From assembly GCF_030013595.1 (NCBI RefSeq), contig NZ_CP122768.1: 64,000 nt of DNA. The stretch is one strand, 5' to 3'. Position 1 is the stretch's first letter. Every line of letters starts with the position of its first letter. Below the pieces are notes generated by a model. It worked only from the letters and a program-made list of their open reading frames with translations. It made no database searches and was not told the DNA's origin. Shown here one piece after another: positions 28,115 through 37,338 of the stretch. Made by a program: the position numbers and the translations under genes. Origin of the DNA: Escherichia coli. GTDB taxonomy: Bacteria > Pseudomonadota > Gammaproteobacteria > Enterobacterales > Enterobacteriaceae.

Positions 28115-28465
28115 TTACCCCGTTTGTGCGCTTCTGAGTTTCTCAAGCAAAGATGGATCGAACATGTTCAGCATTGCCGCTTTACGTTCTTCTTCTTTCT
28201 TGCGTGCAATTTCTTCCAGTTCTTCTTTAGTTTTAAAGAGTTTTTCTTCTCTAATTAATTGGAATTGGCTAGGCTTGAGTTTGCGTGCAGTTTCGCGAGT
28301 CATTCCTTGTGACGTCATATACATGGAATATTGCAACATCGCATTCTGCATATCATGAAACGCGGGGCTTTGTGGTTCTAAGTAGGTGTCGAAAATGTAT
28401 AATTTCCAAAACAGAGTGATTGGCATATTATCCATTTCATCTTTACTAAGCCCCGATCGCATCAT
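28115..28465 (-). CDS. tail assembly chaperone, T-like ORF (probably expressed as frameshift fusion)
   Basis: 116 aa frame immediately upstream of the tape measure gene; its frame is open back to the stop of the preceding ORF. Confidence 0.5.
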   Translation of the reverse strand: MMRSGLSKDEMDNMPITLFWKLYIFDTYLEPQSPAFHDMQNAMLQYSMYMTSQGMTRETARKLKPSQFQLIREEKLFKTKEELEEIARKKEEERKAAMLNMFDPSLLEKLRSAQTG

Positions 28466-28494: not shown

Positions 28495-28803
28495 TTACTT
28501 TACCTCGTTTTCAATTACTGCCGGATCTTGCATCAATGACGCTTGAGCAACCAAACCGATTAATTCACTACGGACGTTAGTATACAGTGCCTTAACTTGT
28601 TCCATAGATTCAAATACTGGTTTACCGTCTTCATCTTCAATACAACGAAGAATAGAACGTTCATCACGGTCTTCTTTATCAGTATTGAAAACATGTTCGT
28701 TAAATTCTTTTACTGACATAGGGCGAGCATAGAACGTGAATCCGCCGATGGTCAGAGATTCACGTTTCGGAGAAAGAGCTTTCAGCATTTCATTAATATT
28801 CAT
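28495..28803 (-). CDS. tail assembly chaperone, G-like ORF
   Basis: 102 aa; ends ...EVK with codons GTA AAG TAA where the -1 frame is open. Confidence 0.5.
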   Translation of the reverse strand: MNINEMLKALSPKRESLTIGGFTFYARPMSVKEFNEHVFNTDKEDRDERSILRCIEDEDGKPVFESMEQVKALYTNVRSELIGLVAQASLMQDPAVIENEVK

Positions 28804-28845: not shown

Positions 28846-29352
28846 TTAAGAGATTTTCAAAGTCTGCTTAGTGCCAGTCTTCTTAATGTTGGTAAGGAAA
28901 GCAGCCGGAGGATTGCTTAACCAGTAATAATGAAAACCACTTTGCATACTGTTATAAGGAACAGTGACAGCAGCACCACCCAAATTAACGGTTATATTCC
29001 CCGCTCTACCGTTCTGGAGATATACAGCCATAGTAGGAGTACCACCATTGAATTGACCAACGATAACGCCAATCAGACGCCCTACGCCCACGTTTTCGGG
29101 GTTCTCCATAGATCCTTTACCGCGCATGTCAGTTACTGGATAGTTTGAAGCAGTTACACCCCAGTTATTACCCAATGAAGTAGACCACGCAGCAGTAGCT
29201 ACAACCGTATCCATACCACGACCACACATCGCGCTCATATTACCAGGTACACCAACTTTTAACGCTTGCATAGCCTCACGCATCCATCTCTTGCCAGTTA
29301 CAGAAACAGCCGATGATCCGACCCAGCCGGGCTTATTAACGACATTTGCCAT
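28846..29352 (-). CDS. hypothetical tail protein
   Basis: 168 aa, RBS GGAG before the ATG, tail module context. Confidence 0.45.
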   Translation of the reverse strand: MANVVNKPGWVGSSAVSVTGKRWMREAMQALKVGVPGNMSAMCGRGMDTVVATAAWSTSLGNNWGVTASNYPVTDMRGKGSMENPENVGVGRLIGVIVGQFNGGTPTMAVYLQNGRAGNITVNLGGAAVTVPYNSMQSGFHYYWLSNPPAAFLTNIKKTGTKQTLKIS

Positions 29353-29365
29353 TTTTATTACTCCA

Positions 29366-29397
29366 ATAAAAAAGCCCCACCATTAAGGCAGGGCTTA
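29366..29397 (-). terminator. rho-independent terminator (copy 1 of a triplicated element)
   Basis: minus strand AAGCCCTGCC-TTAAT-GGTGGGGCTT followed by TTTTTT. Confidence 0.5.
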
Positions 29398-29403
29398 TAA
29401 TTA

Positions 29404-29526
29404 ATCTTTAGCCTTGCGGCTTCGTTTAGCTGTGGCTTTCGCCGTAACAACCTCTAATTCTGGAATCACCACCGCTTCATGTTCCGGCTGTGGTTCCGGT
29501 TCTATTAAAGGAAGTTCTTCGTTAGT
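29404..29526 (-). other. in-frame post-TGA extension ORF (41 codons) downstream of putative major tail gene
   Basis: translation continues in frame after the TGA stop: TNEELPLIEPEPQPEHEAVVIPELEVVTAKATAKRSRKAKD, ending TAA just before the terminator. Confidence 0.3.
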
Positions 29527-30003
29527 TCATCCGGCAGTATTGAAGATTTCCTGTTTCAGCGGTTTGCCGTCCACTGCAAAGGTAAACTCTTTAGTTACCA
29601 CTTCTTCATCGCCACCGTTCATAGCAACTTTAGAAATAAAGCCGTTGAAAGCGGTGCGAATACCAGTCTGTTTTCCGGCGTCAACATAATACTCTATTTT
29701 GATTTGTACTCTTGTGCCGTCTTCGGCAGCTTTGATCAATTTTTCGTGGACACTATCCCCGGGGATGTAATTCACCGTAAGAGTCAGATCAGGAACATTC
29801 AGTTTACCTACTAGTTTACGGTTATACTGAGAAGAGAAGGATTTAACTTCTACAGTACCGCGCTCGATACCAGTTTCAGGAAAACCAGCACACTCTTTAA
29901 TTTCTTCATAGCCCTCATGGTTGAGAGTGGTGTTAGTGGTATCGGCGTGATAGAACAGACTTACCAGACCACCAGTAAAAATATCTTTAAATTGCTGAGA
30001 CAT
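29527..30003 (-). CDS. putative major tail (tube) protein
   Basis: 158 aa, followed by a strong terminator as expected for an abundant structural protein; assignment by size and context only. Confidence 0.45.
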   Translation of the reverse strand: MSQQFKDIFTGGLVSLFYHADTTNTTLNHEGYEEIKECAGFPETGIERGTVEVKSFSSQYNRKLVGKLNVPDLTLTVNYIPGDSVHEKLIKAAEDGTRVQIKIEYYVDAGKQTGIRTAFNGFISKVAMNGGDEEVVTKEFTFAVDGKPLKQEIFNTAG

Positions 30004-30058
30004 AGAATTACCCCTTAATTAAATTGTTATTACGGGGGAACTAGTCCCCCGACTTTTA

Positions 30059-33000
30059 TTATTTAGTTGCTTTGAGTTCGGCAATTTCTTTCTGTAATGC
30101 TTCGATCTGGGCTTTATATTTGGCGTCCATTTCCTGAATAGCTTTAATAATCAAGGCATTAACAGCGGAGTTAGAAATAGTCTTAATTGCTTCTGGATTT
30201 TCTGGATCTTCGGTGGATTGAATACCTACTGCTTCCGGCAACACTTCTTCCAGATCCTGAGCAATAATACCTACTTCGCGTTTAATCACTGTGTCATCAG
30301 AAAGAGATTTAACTTTATCGTAGGTGTAGACTTTCAGGGAGTTTACTTTCTCTAATGCGCCGTCCTGTAATTCTTCCTTGTTGATTTTAAGGCGAGCATC
30401 AGAACGAATGTACACATCGTTAAAGCTACCGTTTCTGGATGCGCTTAAATCACCAGCCGCGTTAAAGTCAAACGTTGCATCGTGTACGTGCATACGCACC
30501 ATAGCATTTCCGATAGTACCGCTAGGAACATGTACACCCATTGCTGCGATATGATATTTACCTTGATGGGTTGCTTTCCATACGTTATGAGCGGAATCGG
30601 TTGATTGTTGACAGTCGACCTGAATACCAGAAGCACGATCACGCCAGCTAGTCCAACTACCACCAGCAACGCTACCACGAATAAGACCATTACCGCCACC
30701 GGATACAGTGCCCGTTTCAAGGTGAATCATCTTACCGCCGAATTTCCAGACTTCGGTTTGTTTCTCACCACGGAAGCGAATAACACCAGCGTCATCGCAA
30801 TACATCAAGCCCAACTCTAAACCGTTTGGATCTCTAAACCAGATGTGCTTATTGCCAGCGCGTTTAAACGTAATATCAGCACCAGTTGTTGTGATATTGC
30901 TAGCAACGTTTAGACTACCCGCCATAGAGAACAGAATAGGTCCAGTGCCACCCTGAGTACGTTCAGTATACCAGTGATAACTTGTAGCATCCTTACATTC
31001 AAAAACCTGTTTGCGTTGCTCGTTACCCCATGTATGGAGACTAAATTGCGAAGAAGAACCACGGTTAGCATCAAATGCAATTTCACCAGATTCTACACGT
31101 ACAAAGCCTCTAAAACGTGTTGTTATGTTACCAGTACCCATAGCACGTTCAGTGATAAAATGTGCGCCCTGACTGTCTTCAATCTGTAGGATGTTATCGC
31201 GACCGTTATTGCTATCGCCCCAATGGTTAAACCGGAAGTAATCGCGGGAATTTAATCGCCCAGCGTCGAAAGTCAAATGCCCTTTCTTAATGTAAACGTC
31301 ATTACTAAAGCGAGCGGCTTTGCTTGCACGTTCTAAGACTAATGCACCTTCGTTACCATCACCACCCAAAGTAACATTACCGCTACCAAGATGGTAAATG
31401 AACGGACGATAGCCGTTCCAACTACCAAGTTTATCATTTTCGGCAGTAGACAGAAGATATACGTTTTGACCATCATTACGCCAGAATGCACCATAATTAC
31501 CGTAGATCATGCGGTAAGCGTCGCTATTCATTGAGATGAATTGAGCGTTAGTATAAACTCGTTTTGTGTTACCGGTTGCAAGTTCGATCTGTCCGTCTAT
31601 GTGGTGACGAATAGAAGTACCACCTACATCACTATACCATTCAAAAACGTTAGTATCAGCATTACCATAACCGATCCACCCTTGACGGGTAATAGATCCA
31701 GTCCGATTATCTTGAAACGTAATATGGTTGGATTGACCAGCAGGACGCCGCAAGGTAATAACATTACTACCGCCACCCAACATCATTCGACCAGAAAGAA
31801 TATTACCTTTATGAGTCCCAGCAATAGAGCTACTAGATTCAACGGTTAGAATCTCCTGAGCATCTGTACTACCCGTGGCGAGTCGATAAGTAGAACCCTG
31901 AACCGTCTCATGCCAGATCATTTCATTATAGTTACTGCGGAATTTACGAATATATTTCCGACCAGTACCCCTATCATTACTCAAGTGAACAATATCATAA
32001 CTATTTTGTGTGTTATCGTCAAAACTCAACACACCTCGTTTGTTTTCGGTGTTGAAAAGAGTAATGATGCGCCCATCAATAACACCAACAGAAGGTTTAA
32101 TTAACGTGGCTTCCGGTGTATCGTGAACAGTCAGATTAACATAAACACTTTTACCAAATTCAACAATAACGTTATCAGTGTAACGCTGATATTTCACATA
32201 AATGTCATAGTTATCACCGGATGTATTGACGGCAAATACATCAAAATCTTTGACGGTATTTCGACGATATGCAACTACGTTAAGTCCTTTAGGTCTATCG
32301 TTACCACTACGGAGAAGAATTTCTACTACATCAACTTGGTCATATGCCGTAACGTTGTAACCATTACCACCATGAATACGGAAAAACACACTACGCCCGT
32401 TTTGTGGAATTGTTGCGGTTGCCAATTTGAAATATGCAGATACGTTTTCGCTAGAATTGGGAACAGACATAACGACGTTTTTAACAAACATCTTATCAAC
32501 TTCGGCTTTGGTGTATGCACCAATCTCGCCAGGAGTCGGCTTATCACCTTCGTGATACATCTTATAGCTAAAGTTCTTCTGTCCTTCTCTATCAAAACCA
32601 TAGGTTTCAACACGAGATCCACCAGACGCATAACGGAAAGTAAATCCGCGACCGTGAGCTTTACCGGCAGAGTGAGGAACGTTAAGAGTTAGATCCATGA
32701 GTCCATCTTGACCATTGGTACGGAAAGCACCAAAGTAGTTAAGATCTCTCGCTGTCTGGTCTTCCAAATAGTTAGCTGTTTTGGTTAACAGATACCCGCC
32801 ATGCTTAGTGTTGGTATTCTTCTTGATGTAAAGAGCATCGTTACTACCTTCAATACCATCAATTCGACGGTTAGCGGCTGCGATCGCTGAATCAGTATCA
32901 GTTTTGTTTTTGTCAACCTTTGCGTTAATAGCGGTATGGTTGCTATTCACCGTCCCTGTAAGGTTACTGATTTTAGTATCAACATCTTTCTTGTTGTCGG

Positions 33001-33520
33001 AAACGACCTTTTCAATCGCTGTTTTGTTAGCTGCAACCGTGCTAGTTAAGCTAGAAATTTTGTTATCTGCATCGGTTTTATTTGCAGTAACAGTTTTAGT
33101 CAAGTTGCTAACGTTGGTGTTAGTGGTATTAACTTTGTTGTTAATCGCGGTGTTATTGTCATTAACCGTCGTGGTTAAAGCTGCGATTTTATTGTCCGCA
33201 TCTCGTTTATTATTTGCTACAGTAGTTTCTATAGCTGATTTGTTAGATGCAACTGTCCCCGTAAGGTTATTGATCTTAGTATCAGCATCGGTTTTATTTG
33301 CCGCGATAGTCGCATCAGTAGTTTTCTTGTTATTGTCTACTTTTGTGTTTAAAGCATTATGACTTTCAGGAGAAACACTTACTTGAACTACTGCGTTATT
33401 TTTATCTTTGGTATAAATTACATGGTCTGCCATCTGAATAGCGATTTCACCGACCTGTAATTGTTCCGGCGTTGGCTTTTTACCAGCCGTCTGTGTGCGT
33501 TTAAATTGGATCGACTGCAT
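30059..33520 (-). CDS. side tail fiber with tandem repeats and C-terminal intramolecular chaperone (S74-like) domain
   Basis: 1153 aa; conserved fiber N-terminus (KPTPEQLQVGEIAI...YTKD), about five 28-29 aa repeats (ANKTDADTKINNLTGTV...), C-terminal DVYIRSDARLK ... GIIAQDLEEVLPEAV chaperone signature. Confidence 0.75.
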   Translation of the reverse strand: MQSIQFKRTQTAGKKPTPEQLQVGEIAIQMADHVIYTKDKNNAVVQVSVSPESHNALNTKVDNNKKTTDATIAANKTDADTKINNLTGTVASNKSAIETTVANNKRDADNKIAALTTTVNDNNTAINNKVNTTNTNVSNLTKTVTANKTDADNKISSLTSTVAANKTAIEKVVSDNKKDVDTKISNLTGTVNSNHTAINAKVDKNKTDTDSAIAAANRRIDGIEGSNDALYIKKNTNTKHGGYLLTKTANYLEDQTARDLNYFGAFRTNGQDGLMDLTLNVPHSAGKAHGRGFTFRYASGGSRVETYGFDREGQKNFSYKMYHEGDKPTPGEIGAYTKAEVDKMFVKNVVMSVPNSSENVSAYFKLATATIPQNGRSVFFRIHGGNGYNVTAYDQVDVVEILLRSGNDRPKGLNVVAYRRNTVKDFDVFAVNTSGDNYDIYVKYQRYTDNVIVEFGKSVYVNLTVHDTPEATLIKPSVGVIDGRIITLFNTENKRGVLSFDDNTQNSYDIVHLSNDRGTGRKYIRKFRSNYNEMIWHETVQGSTYRLATGSTDAQEILTVESSSSIAGTHKGNILSGRMMLGGGSNVITLRRPAGQSNHITFQDNRTGSITRQGWIGYGNADTNVFEWYSDVGGTSIRHHIDGQIELATGNTKRVYTNAQFISMNSDAYRMIYGNYGAFWRNDGQNVYLLSTAENDKLGSWNGYRPFIYHLGSGNVTLGGDGNEGALVLERASKAARFSNDVYIKKGHLTFDAGRLNSRDYFRFNHWGDSNNGRDNILQIEDSQGAHFITERAMGTGNITTRFRGFVRVESGEIAFDANRGSSSQFSLHTWGNEQRKQVFECKDATSYHWYTERTQGGTGPILFSMAGSLNVASNITTTGADITFKRAGNKHIWFRDPNGLELGLMYCDDAGVIRFRGEKQTEVWKFGGKMIHLETGTVSGGGNGLIRGSVAGGSWTSWRDRASGIQVDCQQSTDSAHNVWKATHQGKYHIAAMGVHVPSGTIGNAMVRMHVHDATFDFNAAGDLSASRNGSFNDVYIRSDARLKINKEELQDGALEKVNSLKVYTYDKVKSLSDDTVIKREVGIIAQDLEEVLPEAVGIQSTEDPENPEAIKTISNSAVNALIIKAIQEMDAKYKAQIEALQKEIAELKATK

Positions 33521-33597
33521 CGAATCACCTCACTATAAAACAGGAATAAGGGAGGCGTTAACCTCCCAACGTTCATGTTTTATTTAGGTACGCAATC

Positions 33598-34431
33598 TTA
33601 ATACTCACCGAAATCGATCCGGTCCGTCTTAGCCACTGCGCCAATTTCGGCTGGCGTAGGCTTCTCGTTTGTTGTATAGACTTTAATCCATTCCGATTTT
33701 CCGTTGTCCTGAATATTTCGTACCCGCAAACGTGGAGCACCGGAAGTATTACACGTTAATTGCCATGCGCCATGCTCATTAGCTTGAAGATGAATTAACG
33801 ATGTATCAGCACCATAAGGGTTAGTGCTAGCCGTTCCTTTGTAGGTTACAAAGCGGTTTCCTGTCAGAGATTCACTATCAATAGGTCCGGTGAATGGGCT
33901 AACGCCTGAGCCTACGCCAAAATCCCCTTGTCGGATGAGTTTTCCCTCGGTCGCTATACCCCTTGCTAGAATCCCGCCATCTGGTTCAAGTTTAAATTCC
34001 AGTGTTACAGCTTTGTTATCACTACCACGGGTTTTATGTGATGTGACGTAAGCATCGAATATACAAAAGTACCCTGTGTTAGCAGCACTATAGCCAGAGT
34101 TCACAACATAGAACATACGGAAGCGTAAAGGTGTTTTATCCTCTACCGCTTTCATCAACATTGCTTGATGTTCGTCATCCAGAACACGGTTTAACGTGAG
34201 TGTCGTCGGTTCCAGTCTACGATAACCAGCAAGTTTCCCCGTAGCGTCCTGATCGTACTCTTCCAGAGTTTCAATCTCTGTGGATTCTGTTAGCGTAGGG
34301 AATGCTGCGACGTTCTCAATAGAACTAAAGCTAGGATCGAAAAAGTCGACCTGATTGTCTAGCTGGTTAGAGATCGACACTTCAACATGCGATCCCGTAA
34401 AAATATCTAAGTTATCTTGTGTAATATTCAT
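33598..34431 (-). CDS. hypothetical structural protein
   Basis: 277 aa; C-terminal EKPTPAEIGAV motif echoes the fiber N-terminus. Confidence 0.4.
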   Translation of the reverse strand: MNITQDNLDIFTGSHVEVSISNQLDNQVDFFDPSFSSIENVAAFPTLTESTEIETLEEYDQDATGKLAGYRRLEPTTLTLNRVLDDEHQAMLMKAVEDKTPLRFRMFYVVNSGYSAANTGYFCIFDAYVTSHKTRGSDNKAVTLEFKLEPDGGILARGIATEGKLIRQGDFGVGSGVSPFTGPIDSESLTGNRFVTYKGTASTNPYGADTSLIHLQANEHGAWQLTCNTSGAPRLRVRNIQDNGKSEWIKVYTTNEKPTPAEIGAVAKTDRIDFGEY

Positions 34432-34440
34432 TATTACCCC

Positions 34441-34911
34441 TTAAAAACGCGCTAGATAAGAAAATTTAAGGCTAAGTGTCCCAACGATACCCCCATCACT
34501 AGAATCATCGTCATAATCGGTATTAGAAGCTACTGGAGTGATATCTGAAATTGAGAAGCCCAAATCTTTAAAACGTGGGTTATCCGGCTGAATCTGGATT
34601 ATCTGGCAAATACCCTCATGAATTTTGGTTTCATGAATCTGAGAATACAATTGCATTTCGATAACGCATTCAGCTTGCATTGCATTACCGCCACGGACCC
34701 TATTGTAAGTCTCATTCATTCCGGTGATCCAACAAACCACGTCATCACTAAAGCCTTGCTGAGTTTGTTCTACGTTTAAAGCCAGACCTAAATCTTGTTC
34801 GATAATATCCTGCAAGGCGCGTTTGATTTTCAGTCTAGGCATATTATTAACGGTAGCGAGCATGTGTACCCCCTGCCAGAGTGATAAAGCAATCAGTTGT
34901 ATTGTCACCAT
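34441..34911 (-). CDS. head-tail joining protein candidate
   Basis: 156 aa ORF in head-to-tail junction region; true start may be the internal Met. Confidence 0.35.
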   Translation of the reverse strand: MVTIQLIALSLWQGVHMLATVNNMPRLKIKRALQDIIEQDLGLALNVEQTQQGFSDDVVCWITGMNETYNRVRGGNAMQAECVIEMQLYSQIHETKIHEGICQIIQIQPDNPRFKDLGFSISDITPVASNTDYDDDSSDGGIVGTLSLKFSYLARF

Positions 34912-35137: not shown

Positions 35138-35167
35138 AGTTACCCCCTTTATGGAGTATTTACATAC

Positions 35168-35196
35168 AAAAAAGCCCCACCGTTAGGCAGGGCTAA
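35168..35196 (-). terminator. rho-independent terminator (copy 2)
   Basis: minus strand AGCCCTGCC-TAAC-GGTGGGGCT followed by TTTTTT. Confidence 0.5.
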
Positions 35197-35202
35197 TTAT
35201 TA

Positions 35203-35286
35203 TTTTGCTTTCGGTGGACGTCCCACCTTTTTAGCTGTGGCTTTCGCCGTAACTACCGGAATTTCTTCCGGCAATTCTTCGTTATT
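35203..35286 (-). other. in-frame post-TGA extension ORF (28 codons) downstream of capsid gene
   Basis: NNEELPEEIPVVTAKATAKKVGRPPKAK after the TGA; shares NEELP and VVTAKATAK with the extension at 29404..29526. Confidence 0.3.
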
Positions 35287-37293
35287 TCACTCTTCGCCAA
35301 TTTTCAGAACTTTCAGAGCTTCCGGCTGTGCTACAACGTAGTCCAAATCTACAAAGATACGAGGCACTACCGCACCACGGTCACGGTATGTAGTTAGATC
35401 CATATCCAGTTCCAGACCGCCCCACTCACCGATGGTAATACCGGAGAAGTCACCCAGAACGATGTGGTCTGCCGGAATAACGCCAGAAGTAACTACTTCG
35501 TAACCAGCCAGTTTGCCGTTTTCGATGATATAACCGGAAACGCCGTTATCTTTCAGGGTAGATTCCAGTTCGGCAGCAGTTGCACCGCTCATTGCAAACT
35601 TGATCGCCTGAGCAGGAACGCCAGCGTCGGTCAGTGCTGCAATTTCTTTCAGGAAGTCTTTATAAGAGAAAGCAGCTTTCTTGGTAACGCGGCTAGCGTC
35701 TACCAGTTGCTTAACCAGACCAGCCGGACCACGAGCATTTTCTTTATCAGACAGAATCAGTTGTTCCAGTTTGATACGAACAGCTTTGTTAATGTGATCA
35801 GTGATCAGGGTAGCGATGCCCGGAACGGTTTTCAGCGACTGACGGCTGATCGGGTTGCCACCAGCAAAAGTTTTCGGAGACAGTTTCACGTTCGCAAATT
35901 CAGCTTTGCTTTCCGGTGCAGCACCGTTTTCATCAACGAAGCCGAAAGCGTCAACGCTGGAAGCGGTCATTTTTGGAATAGCGGTCGGGGAGTTCAAGCC
36001 ACTGTAAACAGTCACACCCAGACGACCCAGACACGAAGCAGGAAGCAGCATTTCGATGTAGGATTCAGTCATCAGTTTTTCGTCAGTGATAGCGGTCAGG
36101 TCGGCTTTGGTGTTACCAGCAGAAGCAGCACGCAGAGCAGCAGCCGGAACGAATACAGAGCCACCACGAGCAGCACGACCACGCTGCATAGTTGCAGTAG
36201 CAGCCATTGCGGAATATTCAGCTTCGTTAGCGCCGAGCACGTCGCCATCTACCAGGGAGCGGATTACGTTATTAAGATCGAAAGTTTTTTCCATGATTTG
36301 TTCCTTATTAATTTGTTCGTTATTACGTTGAGCATTGGTAATGTTATTTAGTGCCTTAGTGCGGAATGCTTCCGGCGTCATGTCTTTAATTGCCAATGCG
36401 CGTGCTAATTCAGAGTCATCAATATTTAGTTCGCGTGCAATTTCGCGAATTTCTAATTCGTCTTCTTCGGAACGTTCAGCCACTTCCTCGGTTTTTTCTT
36501 CTTCAACCGGAGCGGCTTCACGTTCTTCTTTTACTTCTTCTGTTTCCCGAACAGTTGAACTATCATCATCAACACTTTCAGGATGTTCAGCGTCTTTTCC
36601 GTCTTCGAGATTTTCATCTTCTTTATTCTCTTCAACTTGGCGCTCTTGAGTTTCTTCAACTTCCGGTTCTTTATTTTCTTCTACCGGAGTTTCTTCAACC
36701 TGAGCGGCTTCTTGTTCTTCTTTGATTTCTTCGATTTGTTCTTTAGTCATATCGCGTTTAGCCCCCAAATTAACTGTGATAGTATTTAGAGAGCGATTTA
36801 AACCGACCGTATCGTCTGCGGGCACCGACACCCATGAAATCTCGTGAGGAATCCATTTAGAAACAATGAGTTGCGATTTAGCGTAGTCGATGTGATATTC
36901 TTTAATGTCATAACCGACAGAAATTTTTTCCATCGTACCTTCAATGACTTTATTGCGAATATCATTAGCCAAAGTGCCATGCTTAGAGAATCTAACGGTC
37001 GCACGGCCTACGTTATCCGCATCGATTCGAGCGTTACAAACGACACCAATGTGATTATCGAAATTGTGATTGAACAGCAACGGAGCGTTATTATTCAGAC
37101 GAGACAGATCAACCGCTTCCGGTGTATGTACCAGAATTTCATCTAATACCACCATTTCTTGATTTTGCTCATCCCAAAATTGGCGCTGATAAGGCTGTGT
37201 ACTTGAGAAAGCAATTTCAAATTCGTATTGATCGTTATGCCCTTCATTAATAACTCCACCGTAACCGTTAAGATCGCGGCGAAATTTAAGCAT
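35287..37293 (-). CDS. prohead protease - scaffold - major capsid protein fusion
   Basis: 668 aa; N-terminal protease-like domain, central Glu-rich acidic linker (scaffold/delta-like), C-terminal HK97-like capsid region; directly downstream of portal. Confidence 0.65.
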   Translation of the reverse strand: MLKFRRDLNGYGGVINEGHNDQYEFEIAFSSTQPYQRQFWDEQNQEMVVLDEILVHTPEAVDLSRLNNNAPLLFNHNFDNHIGVVCNARIDADNVGRATVRFSKHGTLANDIRNKVIEGTMEKISVGYDIKEYHIDYAKSQLIVSKWIPHEISWVSVPADDTVGLNRSLNTITVNLGAKRDMTKEQIEEIKEEQEAAQVEETPVEENKEPEVEETQERQVEENKEDENLEDGKDAEHPESVDDDSSTVRETEEVKEEREAAPVEEEKTEEVAERSEEDELEIREIARELNIDDSELARALAIKDMTPEAFRTKALNNITNAQRNNEQINKEQIMEKTFDLNNVIRSLVDGDVLGANEAEYSAMAATATMQRGRAARGGSVFVPAAALRAASAGNTKADLTAITDEKLMTESYIEMLLPASCLGRLGVTVYSGLNSPTAIPKMTASSVDAFGFVDENGAAPESKAEFANVKLSPKTFAGGNPISRQSLKTVPGIATLITDHINKAVRIKLEQLILSDKENARGPAGLVKQLVDASRVTKKAAFSYKDFLKEIAALTDAGVPAQAIKFAMSGATAAELESTLKDNGVSGYIIENGKLAGYEVVTSGVIPADHIVLGDFSGITIGEWGGLELDMDLTTYRDRGAVVPRIFVDLDYVVAQPEALKVLKIGEE

Positions 37294-37338
37294 TTAATCA
37301 CCTTTAATTAATTGGGGGCATTGCGCCCCCGTTGGTTA

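What the first reader, a model, noticed from the sequence alone, without database searches (positions are those of the whole stretch)
29366..29529. Conserved in-frame extension after the TGA stop of the putative major tail gene: candidate programmed stop-codon readthrough
The 158-aa gene ends with TGA followed by A, and the same frame stays open for 41 more codons (TNEELPLIEPEPQPEHEAVVIPELEVVTAKATAKRSRKAKD), ending TAA immediately before a strong terminator. A homologous extension follows the capsid gene about 6 kb away. The two copies differ by synonymous changes in the Leu and Pro codons (CTT/TTG, CCT/CCG) and by an in-frame 14-codon length difference, which is what a translated element would show rather than a purely structural RNA or DNA element. 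Low-level UGA readthrough would give a minor C-terminally tagged form of both abundant virion proteins with a shared Pro/Glu-rich linker and basic tail. I do not recognise this as a described feature of coliphage structural genes.
Basis: partly seen in the sequence, partly recalled or inferred. Interest (0 to 1): 0.75.

Follow-up and report, generated by a model that had tools for sequence, protein, structure and literature searches.

The report
Leaky-stop tails on phage head and tail proteins
In a rare, uncharacterised E. coli prophage family, the major capsid gene and the tail-tube gene both end in a leaky UGA stop followed by a short shared in-frame coding stretch, so a small share of both proteins probably carries a flexible, positively charged tail; this has not been described for tailed DNA phages.

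Summary
On the minus strand the tail-tube gene (29530-30003) and the protease-capsid fusion gene (35290-37293) each end in TGA followed by A. Each is followed by an open in-frame stretch (41 and 28 codons), tight TAA stops and a strong intrinsic terminator.

Across about 57 distinct versions from E. coli prophages, IMG/VR and metagenomes, there is no exception:
- The first stop is always TGA-A.
- Frame 0 is never interrupted; the other two frames carry 2-4 stops each.
- All 13 indel blocks are multiples of three.

Relatives without the extension end in TAA, as do the other 16 structural genes in the window. Distant capsid homologues carry short Ala/Lys-rich C-terminal tails with no stop.

The extension is an acidic, proline-rich, predicted-disordered linker with a Lys/Arg tip. 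In the tube protein it starts where lambda gpV carries its outward-facing Ig domain. A helix starting 10 nt after the UGA is kept with covariation across cassette types.

The best reading is UGA readthrough, probably by tRNA-Trp, giving minor extended capsid and tube isoforms. No protein data exist. Amino-acid constraint is weak, and the function of the tail is unknown. This is a new variant of a known kind.

The parts
29530..30003 (-). Major tail-tube gene, 158 aa.
   Evidence: It matches PHROG 158, major tail protein, at 7e-22. The AF2 core matches the lambda gpV tube domain, 7T2E, at E 4.5e-7 and probability 1.0. RefSeq relatives are annotated as phage tail tube protein.
29527..29529 (-). 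Leaky stop, TGA followed by A (context GGA TGA ACT).
   Evidence: TGA-A is invariant in all 19 distinct tube haplotypes that carry the extension. The 21 distinct tube haplotypes without it end in TAA.
29404..29526 (-). 41-codon in-frame extension: an acidic, Pro-rich linker followed by VTAKATAK-RSRKAKD.
   Evidence: The translation is. In relatives the length is 36-41 codons, always in frame and with no stop. AF2 pLDDT is 35-45 with no secondary structure.
29395..29403 (-). The true end of translation: TAA TTA TAA, two in-frame TAA stops.
29366..29396 (-). Intrinsic terminator: AAGCCCTGCC-TTAAT-GGTGGGGCTT plus a T-run.
   Evidence: It has 10 pairs and is the best terminator-like site in the 10-kb region.
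29446..29516 (-). Predicted RNA domain. Its closing helix starts 10 nt after the UGA and ends just before ACGGCG.
   Evidence: Folds are. The anchored helix is kept with covariation across cassette types. In the window's own variant, two of the helix pairs are U-U mismatches.
29434..29443 (-). GGC-GAAA-GCC mini-hairpin inside the shared 21-nt block.
   Evidence: All cells form a pair in 31 distinct sequences. One pair shows a compensatory C-G to A-U change.
35290..37293 (-). Prohead-protease / scaffold-like / HK97-fold major capsid fusion gene, 668 aa.
   Evidence: Pfam finds Peptidase_S78 at residues 40-162 and Phage_capsid at 440-665. It matches PHROG 617 at 8e-90. The closest solved capsid is 8GTA, roseophage R4C, at 1e-24.
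35287..35289 (-). Leaky stop, TGA followed by A (context GAG TGA AAT).
   Evidence: TGA-A is invariant in the 26 distinct capsid haplotypes that carry the extension. These include two capsid lineages only about 39% identical.
35203..35286 (-). 28-codon in-frame extension, NNEELPEEIPVVTAKATAKKVGRPPKAK.
   Evidence: The sequence is. In relatives the length is 28, 33 or 42-45 codons, always in frame. Pfam gives only a weak AT_hook match on KKVGRPPKAK, i-Evalue 0.15.
35197..35202 (-). Tandem TAA TAA, the true end of translation.
35167..35194 (-). Intrinsic terminator: AGCCCTGCC-TAAC-GGTGGGGCT plus a T-run.
   Evidence: It has 9 pairs and is homologous to the tube-gene terminator (repeat family D12).
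35251..35276 (-). 11-bp hairpin AAUUGCCGGAA-GAAA-UUCCGGUAGUU, starting 10 nt after the UGA.
   Evidence: The fold z-score is -5.1, with 0 of 200 shuffles as stable. One relative has a compensatory U-A to C-G change, TCG paired with GTG.
35239..35248 (-). GGC-GAAA-GCC mini-hairpin, the same block as in the tube copy.

Best explanation
The two most abundant virion genes of this roughly 36-kb E. coli prophage each end in a deliberately weak stop, UGA followed by A.

Inferred mechanism:
- Most ribosomes terminate there through RF2.
- A minority decode the UGA with a near-cognate tRNA, which in E. coli is normally tRNA-Trp. They continue in the same frame for 28-45 codons to tight TAA stops placed just before an intrinsic terminator.
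- This yields minor C-terminally extended forms of the capsid protein and the tail-tube protein.

The added piece is a predicted-disordered, acidic, proline-rich spacer ending in VTAKATAK plus a Lys/Arg cluster.

On the tube protein it starts at the position where lambda gpV carries its outward-facing Ig-like domain. It is therefore most likely displayed on the outside of the tail. By analogy it is also on the outside of the head, a few copies per virion, as a flexible cationic tether for anionic surfaces or polymers.

An RNA helix that begins 10 nt after the UGA and encloses the linker may raise readthrough above the basal level.

Shown: the anatomy, the frame, the stop-codon choice, the indel pattern and the helix covariation. 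Inferred: that readthrough occurs, that Trp is inserted, how efficient it is, that the product enters virions, and what the tail does.
For: 1. Stop-codon choice.
- TGA-A is invariant in every copy with the extension: 19 distinct tube haplotypes and 26 distinct capsid haplotypes, plus 11 new metagenomic haplotypes.
- The codon before the stop varies: GAG, GAA, GAC, GAT, GGA, GCT, TCT or GGT.
- Relatives without the extension end in TAA: 21 of 21 tube haplotypes, and 11 of 12 capsid haplotypes, the twelfth ending TGA-T.
- In the window, 16 of 18 structural genes end in TAA. The only two TGA genes are these two.

2. Frame.
- Frame 0 has no stop in any version. The +1 and +2 frames average 1.7-2.4 and 3.6-4.0 stops per sequence.
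- 175 substitutions on minimum spanning trees created no in-frame stop, P about 4e-4.
- All 13 indel blocks (3 to 48 nt) are multiples of three, P about 6e-7 if they are independent.

3. Independent junctions. The same cassette follows two capsid lineages that are only about 39% identical in the C-terminal 238 residues, and also follows the tube gene. It is always in frame.

4. Protein logic.
- Three non-homologous basic ends (KKVGRPPKAK, KKQRKTKE, KR[SG]RK[AP]K[DNE]) all follow an acidic/Pro linker.
- Distant capsid homologues end, with no stop, in short tails of the same design (GTPAEAKAAKQ, GEAEAGETRKAK, PAGVEAKSKA). An Edwardsiella-type tube protein ends VIPEAVAAKEK.

5. Synonymous changes are enriched: 24 of 51 single-nucleotide variant codons, against about 28% expected.

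6. No conserved start codon lies in the extension. No suppressor tRNA was found in the window.

7. Fold. The tube core matches the lambda gpV tube domain over all 156 residues of the gpV chain. C-terminal additions of gpV, T5 pb6, YSD1 and SPP1 gp17.1* all project outward (PMC8718954).

8. RNA. A helix anchored 10 nt after the UGA pairs in 89.5% of cells against 79.4% in shuffles (0 of 500 reach it). 46 cells change on both sides against 16.9 expected. Slid controls pair at 23-47%.

9. Established knowledge. In E. coli, TGA is the leakiest stop, it is read mainly as Trp, and readthrough rates depend on context and conditions (PMC11126739).
Against: - There is no direct evidence of translation: no peptides and no ribosome footprints.
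- Amino-acid constraint is weak. First and second codon positions vary about as much as third positions in the extension (0.21-0.39 against 0.38). Third positions vary only half as much as in the gene bodies, 0.38 against 0.71-0.75. The cassette is therefore either young and spread by recombination, or constrained at the nucleotide level.
- The copies are related by descent, so the P-values overstate independence.
- Within each cassette type RNAalifold finds no covariation. The paired-versus-unpaired variability contrast appears only in the long capsid type, 10/68 against 31/58, and no separate test was run on that type. The pooled test over all positions gives p = 0.015; pooled third positions give p = 0.53.
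- A 10-nt spacer is slightly longer than the 7-9 nt of known eukaryotic-virus readthrough helices (PMC3159437).
- The location of the capsid C-terminus, inside or outside, was not determined.
Confidence: 0.75

Rival explanations
1. The stretch is an untranslated, structured 3' UTR and terminator cassette. It would stabilise the two most abundant late mRNAs or tune termination, and it is spread between genes and phages by recombination. On this view the open frame is inherited by chance.
For: - The extension, its stop and the terminator are duplicated as one unit.
- Third-position variability is about half that of the gene bodies, and there is little codon periodicity.
- Predicted structure is stable, with z-scores of -3.7 to -5.1 for the capsid types.
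- A helix is kept with covariation.
- The two strongest terminators in the region sit here.
Against: This view does not explain several observations:
- All 13 indel blocks are multiples of three, and 175 substitutions produced no frame-0 stop.
- The other two frames are full of stops.
- The upstream gene always ends in TGA-A, whereas every other structural gene and every relative without the extension uses TAA.
- Three non-homologous ends all encode Lys/Arg clusters.
- Distant homologues carry similar tails constitutively.
Confidence: 0.1
2. Readthrough occurs, but its purpose is regulatory rather than to make a useful protein. A ribosome that passes the UGA melts the downstream RNA domain and stops 4-5 nt before the terminator stem. 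It thereby blocks the hairpin and lets RNA polymerase continue into the downstream structural genes. Only an open frame would be required, not a particular peptide.
For: - The extension's stop lies 2-5 nt from the terminator stem in both copies.
- Amino-acid constraint is relaxed while the frame is strictly kept.
- Genes downstream of both terminators need far lower dosage than the capsid and tube proteins.
Against: - A readthrough rate of a few percent could change termination by only a few percent.
- The polymerase would usually have passed a terminator only 85-130 nt away before the ribosome decides at the UGA.
- Relatives without the extension already place their TAA directly against the same kind of terminator, so the adjacency is ancestral.
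- The recurrent linker-plus-basic-tip design, and the constitutive tails in homologues, point to a protein role.
Confidence: 0.1
3. The UGA is decoded as selenocysteine, directed by a downstream SECIS-like hairpin.
For: A hairpin starts 10 nt after the UGA in the short capsid type. From my own knowledge, the minimal E. coli SECIS works when placed about 11 nt from the UGA.
Against: - No Rfam family, SECIS families included, matches at E up to 1.
- The hairpins differ completely between cassette types. They have GAAA or other loops, rather than the SelB-binding loop with a bulged U.
- A selenocysteine at the start of a disordered linker has no obvious use.
Confidence: 0.01
4. The extension is a separate small gene translated from its own start.
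For: In-frame TTG or GTG codons occur inside some versions, for example TTG CCG in the short capsid type and GTG GTG in the tube type.
Against: - No candidate start codon is conserved across the types. TTG becomes TCG or TTA, and the long type lacks them at equivalent positions.
- There is no convincing ribosome-binding site.
- It would not explain the invariant TGA-A, or why the frame always matches the upstream gene across different junctions.
Confidence: 0.02

Closest known systems
Coat-protein readthrough in allolevivirus Q-beta (the A1 protein)
   Same: - A leaky UGA ends the major capsid gene of an E. coli phage.
- Near-cognate tRNA-Trp would give a minor C-terminally extended coat protein that enters the virion.
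- From my own memory, not checked here, the Q-beta context is also UGA followed by A and a Thr codon.
   Different: - Q-beta is a small ssRNA phage. Its extension is a folded domain of about 195 aa needed for infection.
- Here the phage is a tailed dsDNA prophage and the extension is 28-45 aa and disordered.
- The same cassette sits on two different structural genes.
- A helix 10 nt downstream is conserved.
- Production of the extended form is not demonstrated.
Frameshift-derived long forms of both the capsid and the tail protein in Listeria phages PSA, A118 and A500 (PMC5009743)
   Same: - Both the major capsid gene and the major tail gene of one phage yield a second, C-terminally extended product by recoding at the 3' end of the gene.
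- In the tail gene (tsh), the shift occurs at CCC_UGA, next to a UGA stop.
   Different: - Those cases use +1 or -1 frameshifting into another frame.
- Here the extension is in frame 0 and both other frames are closed.
- The phage family, the host and the extension sequences are unrelated.
SPP1 gp17.1*, T3/T7 gene 10B, Lactobacillus phage A2, and the constitutive lambda gpV C-domain: C-terminal decorations on major head and tail proteins (PMC8718954, PMC5009743)
   Same: - An extra C-terminal module is attached where the tube or capsid fold ends.
- On tail tubes it is displayed outward.
- In the recoded cases it is present on only a fraction of subunits.
- It is proposed to make weak contacts with cell-surface polymers.
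   Different: - Those modules are folded Ig-like or FN3 domains, or in T7 a roughly 50-aa non-Ig tail. Where recoding is used, it is frameshifting.
- Here the module is a disordered acidic linker with a cationic tip, made by readthrough.
Structure-stimulated UGA readthrough in alphaviruses, coltiviruses, furoviruses and Drosophila kelch (PMC3159437)
   Same: - A UGA is followed by a short spacer and then a long-range helix enclosing roughly 60-140 nt.
- Synonymous-site variability is reduced downstream of the stop.
   Different: - Those are eukaryotic translation systems with 7-9 nt spacers and usually a UGA-CGG context.
- Here the system is bacterial, the spacer is 10 nt and the context is UGA-A.
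- A stimulatory role for the helix is untested.

Membership tests
Functional stop-codon readthrough of a virion protein gene (Q-beta A1 type) | The main ORF ends in a weak stop codon that is conserved as such. | tested here: met
   TGA-A is found in every one of about 57 distinct versions. Relatives without the extension and the other 16 structural genes use TAA.
Functional stop-codon readthrough of a virion protein gene (Q-beta A1 type) | The downstream region is maintained as an open reading frame in phase with the main ORF. | tested here: met
   There are no frame-0 stops. All 13 indel blocks are multiples of three. 175 substitutions created no stop. The other two frames are closed.
Functional stop-codon readthrough of a virion protein gene (Q-beta A1 type) | The extension evolves under purifying selection as protein. 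| tested here: inconclusive
   Synonymous changes are modestly enriched, 24 of 51 against about 28% expected. There is little codon-position periodicity, and third-position variability is low.
Functional stop-codon readthrough of a virion protein gene (Q-beta A1 type) | [quoted passage not shown] | not testable with these tools
   This needs mass spectrometry, western blots or ribosome profiling. No cultured phage of this family is in the phage collection.
Programmed ribosomal frameshift extensions of capsid or tail genes (PSA/A118, SPP1, T7 type) | The extension lies in the +1 or -1 frame and is reached at a slippery site. | tested here: not met
   The extension is in frame 0. The +1 and +2 frames carry 1.7-4 stops per sequence.
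Ig-like / FN3 decoration domains on phage structural proteins | The extension is a folded Ig-like domain. | tested here: not met
   The extension is 28-45 aa. AF2 pLDDT is 35-45 with no secondary structure. Pfam finds no Ig family.
Bacterial selenocysteine insertion (SECIS) | A SelB-binding hairpin immediately 3' of the UGA, conserved in sequence and shape. | tested here: not met
   There is no Rfam match at E up to 1. The hairpins differ between cassette types and lack the SECIS loop.
Suppressor-tRNA or recoded-stop phages | A phage-encoded suppressor tRNA, or genome-wide in-frame use of the stop codon. | tested here: not met
   The only ARAGORN call is a dubious 91-nt tRNA-Gln(ttg) lying inside a gene. 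TGA is used only at these two gene ends in the structural module.
AT-hook DNA-binding motif | A GRP core flanked by Lys/Arg that matches Pfam PF02178. | tested here: inconclusive
   KKVGRPPKAK gives i-Evalue 0.15 and 12.5 bits. Only one of the three basic ends contains GRP.
3'-structure-stimulated readthrough signal | A conserved helix a short, fixed distance 3' of the stop, supported by covariation. | tested here: met
   The helix is anchored 10 nt after the UGA. 89.5% of cells pair against 79.4% in shuffles (0 of 500). 7 pairs change on both sides. Slid controls pair at 23-47%. Caveat: there are only about five independent cassette types, and no covariation within a type.
3'-structure-stimulated readthrough signal | The helix increases readthrough. 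| not testable with these tools
   This needs reporters with helix-disrupting and compensatory mutations.
Intrinsic terminator | A GC-rich hairpin followed by a T-run directly after the coding region. | tested here: met
   Stems of 10 and 9 bp with T-runs are the two best sites on this strand in 10 kb.

The most novel reading that the evidence does not exclude
This would be a bacterial example of signal-dependent stop-codon readthrough. A UGA-A stop, a fixed 10-nt spacer and a long-range RNA helix would together set the dose of a portable 'tail cassette'. The cassette moves by recombination between structural genes and between phages. It would place the same flexible cationic tether on both the head and the tail of a tailed dsDNA phage, as a non-Ig route to surface decoration.
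Probability: 0.3. Interest if true: 0.85.

Novelty: new variant of a known kind. Interest (0 to 1): 0.68.

Why it matters
- Recoding at the ends of phage structural genes is known almost entirely as frameshifting. Functional stop-codon readthrough in bacteria is known essentially from the ssRNA phage Q-beta and a few isolated genes.
- A conserved UGA-readthrough extension on both the capsid and the tube protein of an E. coli prophage would add a new route by which tailed phages make minor virion isoforms.
- It would also supply a natural E. coli context, possibly with an RNA stimulator, for studying the competition between RF2 and tRNA-Trp.
- Because UGA leakiness in E. coli changes with temperature, nutrients and the RF2 allele, the copy number of the tail per virion could depend on host physiology.
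- Annotation pipelines miss it: RefSeq leaves both stretches as unannotated intergenic DNA.
- It also suggests a compact, dose-limited display site on both the head and the tail for engineering.

Tried and rejected
- **Cultured phages.** blastn of the tube region against 50,697 phage records found no match. tblastn with the capsid gave at best 43% identity, to Escherichia phage DCP80, and otherwise 31% or less. No cultured relative was available for comparison.
- **Species-representative genomes.** The scan gave only two distant loci, from Yersinia and Pantoea. Both lack the extension and were useful only as negatives.
- **A sense codon at the stop.** Protein P0001 (198 aa) appeared to have Trp at the stop position. 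Its contig actually has TGA there, so the gene caller had used a TGA=Trp code. It is an artefact.
- **Suppressor tRNA.** None was found.
- **Rfam, including SECIS.** There was no match.
- **Pfam on the extension.** The only result was a sub-threshold AT_hook match.
- **PDB sequence search with the tube profile.** It found nothing. Fold search was needed instead.
- **dN/dS-type argument.** It is weak. Extension third positions vary less than those of the gene bodies, and periodicity is poor, so I did not rest the case on it.
- **RNA structure within single cassette types.** RNAalifold found no compensatory pairs. A paired-versus-unpaired variability contrast appeared only in the long capsid type; pooled over all positions p = 0.015, and pooled third positions p = 0.53. 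Only the cross-type anchored helix gave clear covariation.
- **Metagenome pattern scan.** Eight of the 29 matches (in 27 stretches) were chance matches in unrelated sequence and were discarded.
- **Literature.** Four full-text searches aimed at readthrough in tailed-phage structural genes found no described case. The library holds open-access papers only.
Full report
**What is there**

The window is E. coli chromosome. Its flanks match the curA/ydcZ/ortT and hglS/trg/ydcI regions at 99.9-100% identity. In the best-matching strain those flanks lie about 20 kb apart, against about 55 kb in the window. The window therefore holds an inserted prophage of roughly 36 kb.

The structural genes run on the minus strand. 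The 158-aa gene at 29527..30003 is a tail-tube protein:
- It matches PHROG 158 at 7e-22.
- Its AF2 core matches the lambda gpV tube domain, 7T2E, over all 156 residues of that chain, at E 4.5e-7 and probability 1.0.

It ends GGA TGA A. The frame then stays open for 41 codons to TAA. A second in-frame TAA and a 10-bp intrinsic terminator follow.

The 668-aa gene at 35287..37293 is a fusion of Peptidase_S78, a scaffold-like region and an HK97-type capsid domain. The closest solved capsid is roseophage R4C, 8GTA. It ends GAG TGA A. The frame continues for 28 codons to TAA TAA and a homologous terminator.

The two extensions share an exact 21-nt block encoding TAKATAK.

**Comparative test**

The family is rare: 21 of 5,426 complete E. 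coli genomes hold a match to the tail-tube region and its extension, and 19 of them hold most of it. No cultured relative exists in the phage collection. I collected copies from four sources:
- 15 E. coli prophages;
- IMG/VR loci found through the DNA block;
- IMG/VR loci found through the tube protein;
- a metagenome scan.

These gave 45 distinct extension sequences (4 short-capsid, 22 long-capsid and 19 tube), plus 11 further metagenomic variants. There is no exception to the following:
- The first stop is TGA followed by A.
- The frame of the upstream gene stays open to a TAA TAA or TGA TAA (after the capsid gene) or a TAA (after the tube gene) placed just before the terminator.
- The length is 28, 33, 36 or 39-45 codons.

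The codon before the stop varies among eight codons. The other two frames average 1.7-4 stops per sequence.

On minimum spanning trees there are 175 substitutions, none of which created a frame-0 stop (P about 4e-4). All 13 indel blocks, of 3 to 48 nt, are multiples of three (P about 6e-7). Both values are optimistic, because the lineages are not fully independent.

**Stop-codon logic**

Within the window, 16 of 18 structural genes end in TAA. The only TGA genes are these two.

Tube genes 81% or more identical to the query all have TGA-A plus the extension. Tube genes 71% or less identical all end in TAA, often TAA TAA, directly against the terminator.

Capsid genes show the same split. All 26 distinct haplotypes with the extension end in TGA-A. 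Of the 12 without it, 11 end in TAA and one in TGA-T.

The capsid extension is more widely distributed than the tube one. It persists in phages whose tube gene lacks it. It also follows two capsid lineages that are only about 39% identical (ALKVL... and ALTVVQKK...), always in frame. The cassette has therefore moved by recombination onto different genes, and only in-phase junctions are seen.

**Protein features**

The extension has two parts. The first is an acidic, Pro-rich spacer, such as EPEPQPEHE or EPSEPSPDLGEE. The second is VTAKATAK followed by one of three non-homologous basic ends: KKVGRPPKAK, KKQRKTKE or KR[SG]RK[AP]K[DNE].

AF2 gives pLDDT 35-45 and no secondary structure for this part. 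Pfam reports only a sub-threshold AT_hook match.

Distant capsid homologues that have no internal stop end in short tails of the same design...GTPAEAKAAKQ...GEAEAGETRKAK and ...PAGVEAKSKA. Some tube homologues end ...VIPEAVAAKEK or ...ARK. A basic tip on a short spacer is thus an ordinary feature of this protein lineage. In this clade it has been lengthened and placed behind a leaky stop.

The tube fold ends exactly where lambda gpV continues into its outward-facing Ig-like domain (PMC8718954). An external location on the tail is therefore likely. The capsid side is undetermined.

**Caveats on selection**

Synonymous changes are modestly enriched, 24 of 51 single-nucleotide variant codons against about 28% expected. 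However, codon periodicity is poor. Third positions vary at 38% of extension codons, against 71-75% in the gene bodies. First and second positions vary at 21-39%.

The cassette, its terminator and the downstream genes form a more conserved block than the capsid and tube bodies. One downstream protein, WP_000881569.1, is identical in most loci. This fits recombination breakpoints near the stop. It means the low divergence is not in itself evidence of an RNA function.

**RNA**

In every cassette type the minimum-energy fold starts a helix at nucleotide 14, that is, 10 nt after the UGA. The helix closes just before ACGGCGAAAGCC, which itself forms a GGC-GAAA-GCC hairpin.

Within a single type there is no covariation. 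A paired-versus-unpaired variability contrast is seen only in the long capsid type.

Across types the anchored helix does hold up:
- 89.5% of cells pair, against 79.4 +/- 1.1% in shuffles (0 of 500 reach it).
- 7 pairs, and 46 cells, change on both sides, against 16.9 cells expected.
- Slid controls pair at only 23-47%.

Individual compensatory changes also occur:
- U-A to C-G in the short-capsid hairpin;
- U-A to C-G in the GGUGG/CCACC hairpin;
- C-G to A-U in the GNRA hairpin.

The layout resembles the spacer-plus-helix readthrough stimulators of alphaviruses and others (PMC3159437). A stimulatory role here is only a hypothesis. A role in mRNA stability or in termination is equally possible.

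**Mechanism proposed**

RF2 terminates most ribosomes at UGA-A. A minority read the codon with tRNA-Trp. In E. coli, TGA is the leakiest stop, it is read mostly as Trp, and rates run from below 1% to tens of percent depending on context and conditions (PMC11126739). Those ribosomes add the tail.

If readthrough were in the low percent range, which has not been measured, this would give a few tailed subunits per head and per tail. The closest solved relative, R4C, has 415 capsid copies (PMC10276861). The tube-protein copy number of this phage is not known.

I consider translation of the extension by readthrough about 75% likely. I consider a helix-stimulated ('programmed') mechanism about 30% likely. 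The function as a surface cationic tether is an inference only.

**Rivals**

- An untranslated structured 3' UTR and terminator cassette (about 10%) fails on the frame, the indels and the stop-codon choice.
- A purely regulatory readthrough that occludes the terminator (about 10%) fits the relaxed peptide constraint. It does not fit the recurrent basic tips or the constitutive tails in homologues.
- Selenocysteine insertion and an independent small ORF are very unlikely.

**Comparison and novelty**

Q-beta A1 is the closest mechanistic analogue: UGA readthrough of a coat gene in E. coli.

The Listeria phages PSA, A118 and A500 are the closest organisational analogue. In them both the capsid and the tail gene yield long forms, but by frameshifting (PMC5009743). 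SPP1 gp17.1* and T7 10B are further analogues.

Four full-text searches found no described stop-codon readthrough in structural genes of tailed dsDNA phages. The library is open-access only. I file this as a new variant of a known kind.

Noticed in passing
window 28495-28501 (-), with the downstream ORF 28115..28465 (-): The 102-aa tail-assembly-chaperone-like gene (PHROG 344) ends ...GTA AAG TAA. The -1 frame is open from just before this point and runs into the 116-aa ORF. This looks like the usual G/GT-type -1 frameshift, here at A_AAG next to the stop. RefSeq relatives annotate two separate genes.
   Followed up: partly
window 33598-34431 (-): This 277-aa protein has an N-terminal stretch of about 150 aa that matches the same major-tail-protein family as the 158-aa tube gene (PHROG 158, 8e-10). 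It is a second tube-fold gene lying upstream of the tail-fibre gene. Its role is unknown.
   Followed up: no
window 28846-33520 (-): The tube gene, with its extension and terminator, sits between a T4 gp37-like long-tail-fibre gene (1153 aa, 30059..33520) and a gp38-like adhesin gene (168 aa, 28846..29352). A fibre gene and its adhesin/chaperone gene are usually adjacent, so this split is unusual. Some relatives (L014, L015) lack the gp38-like gene.
   Followed up: no
window 37313-37331, 30033-30051 and 33550-33567: GC-rich palindromic hairpins (CGGGGG...CCCCCG, and GGGAGG...CCTCCC) lie in the short gaps immediately upstream of the capsid, tube and fibre genes. Each abundant gene is thus bracketed by a 5' hairpin and a 3' terminator. 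They may be mRNA processing or stability elements.
   Followed up: no
window 34586-34676 (+): ARAGORN calls a 91-nt tRNA-Gln(ttg) on the strand opposite to, and inside, the 156-aa structural gene. It is probably a false positive and is not a suppressor.
   Followed up: partly
loci L082, L084, L086, L094, L096 (capsid 3' ends); P0025, P0034, P0011, P0023 (tube proteins): Distant homologues with no internal stop end in short Ala/Lys-rich tails. Capsid examples are GTPAEAKAAKQ and GEAEAGETRKAK. Tube examples are VIPEAVAAKEK and ...ARK. A basic C-terminal tip seems to be a general feature of this capsid and tube lineage.
   Followed up: partly
window 36499-36745 (-), inside the capsid fusion gene: Imperfect direct repeats rich in GAA/GAAG codons (repeat families D1 and D4) lie in the Glu-rich segment between the protease and capsid domains. 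This is presumably the scaffold-like delta region.
   Followed up: no
loci L007, L010, L014: Several related prophages carry IS2 or ISKpn26 insertions in the portal, connector or fibre genes. Some copies used in the comparison are therefore probably defective, yet they still keep the open extension.
   Followed up: no
locus L016 / protein P0001: A public metagenome gene call translates the tube gene straight through the TGA as Trp, because a TGA=Trp code was applied to a short contig. It yields by accident the predicted readthrough product (198 aa). This shows how such database entries can mislead.
   Followed up: yes
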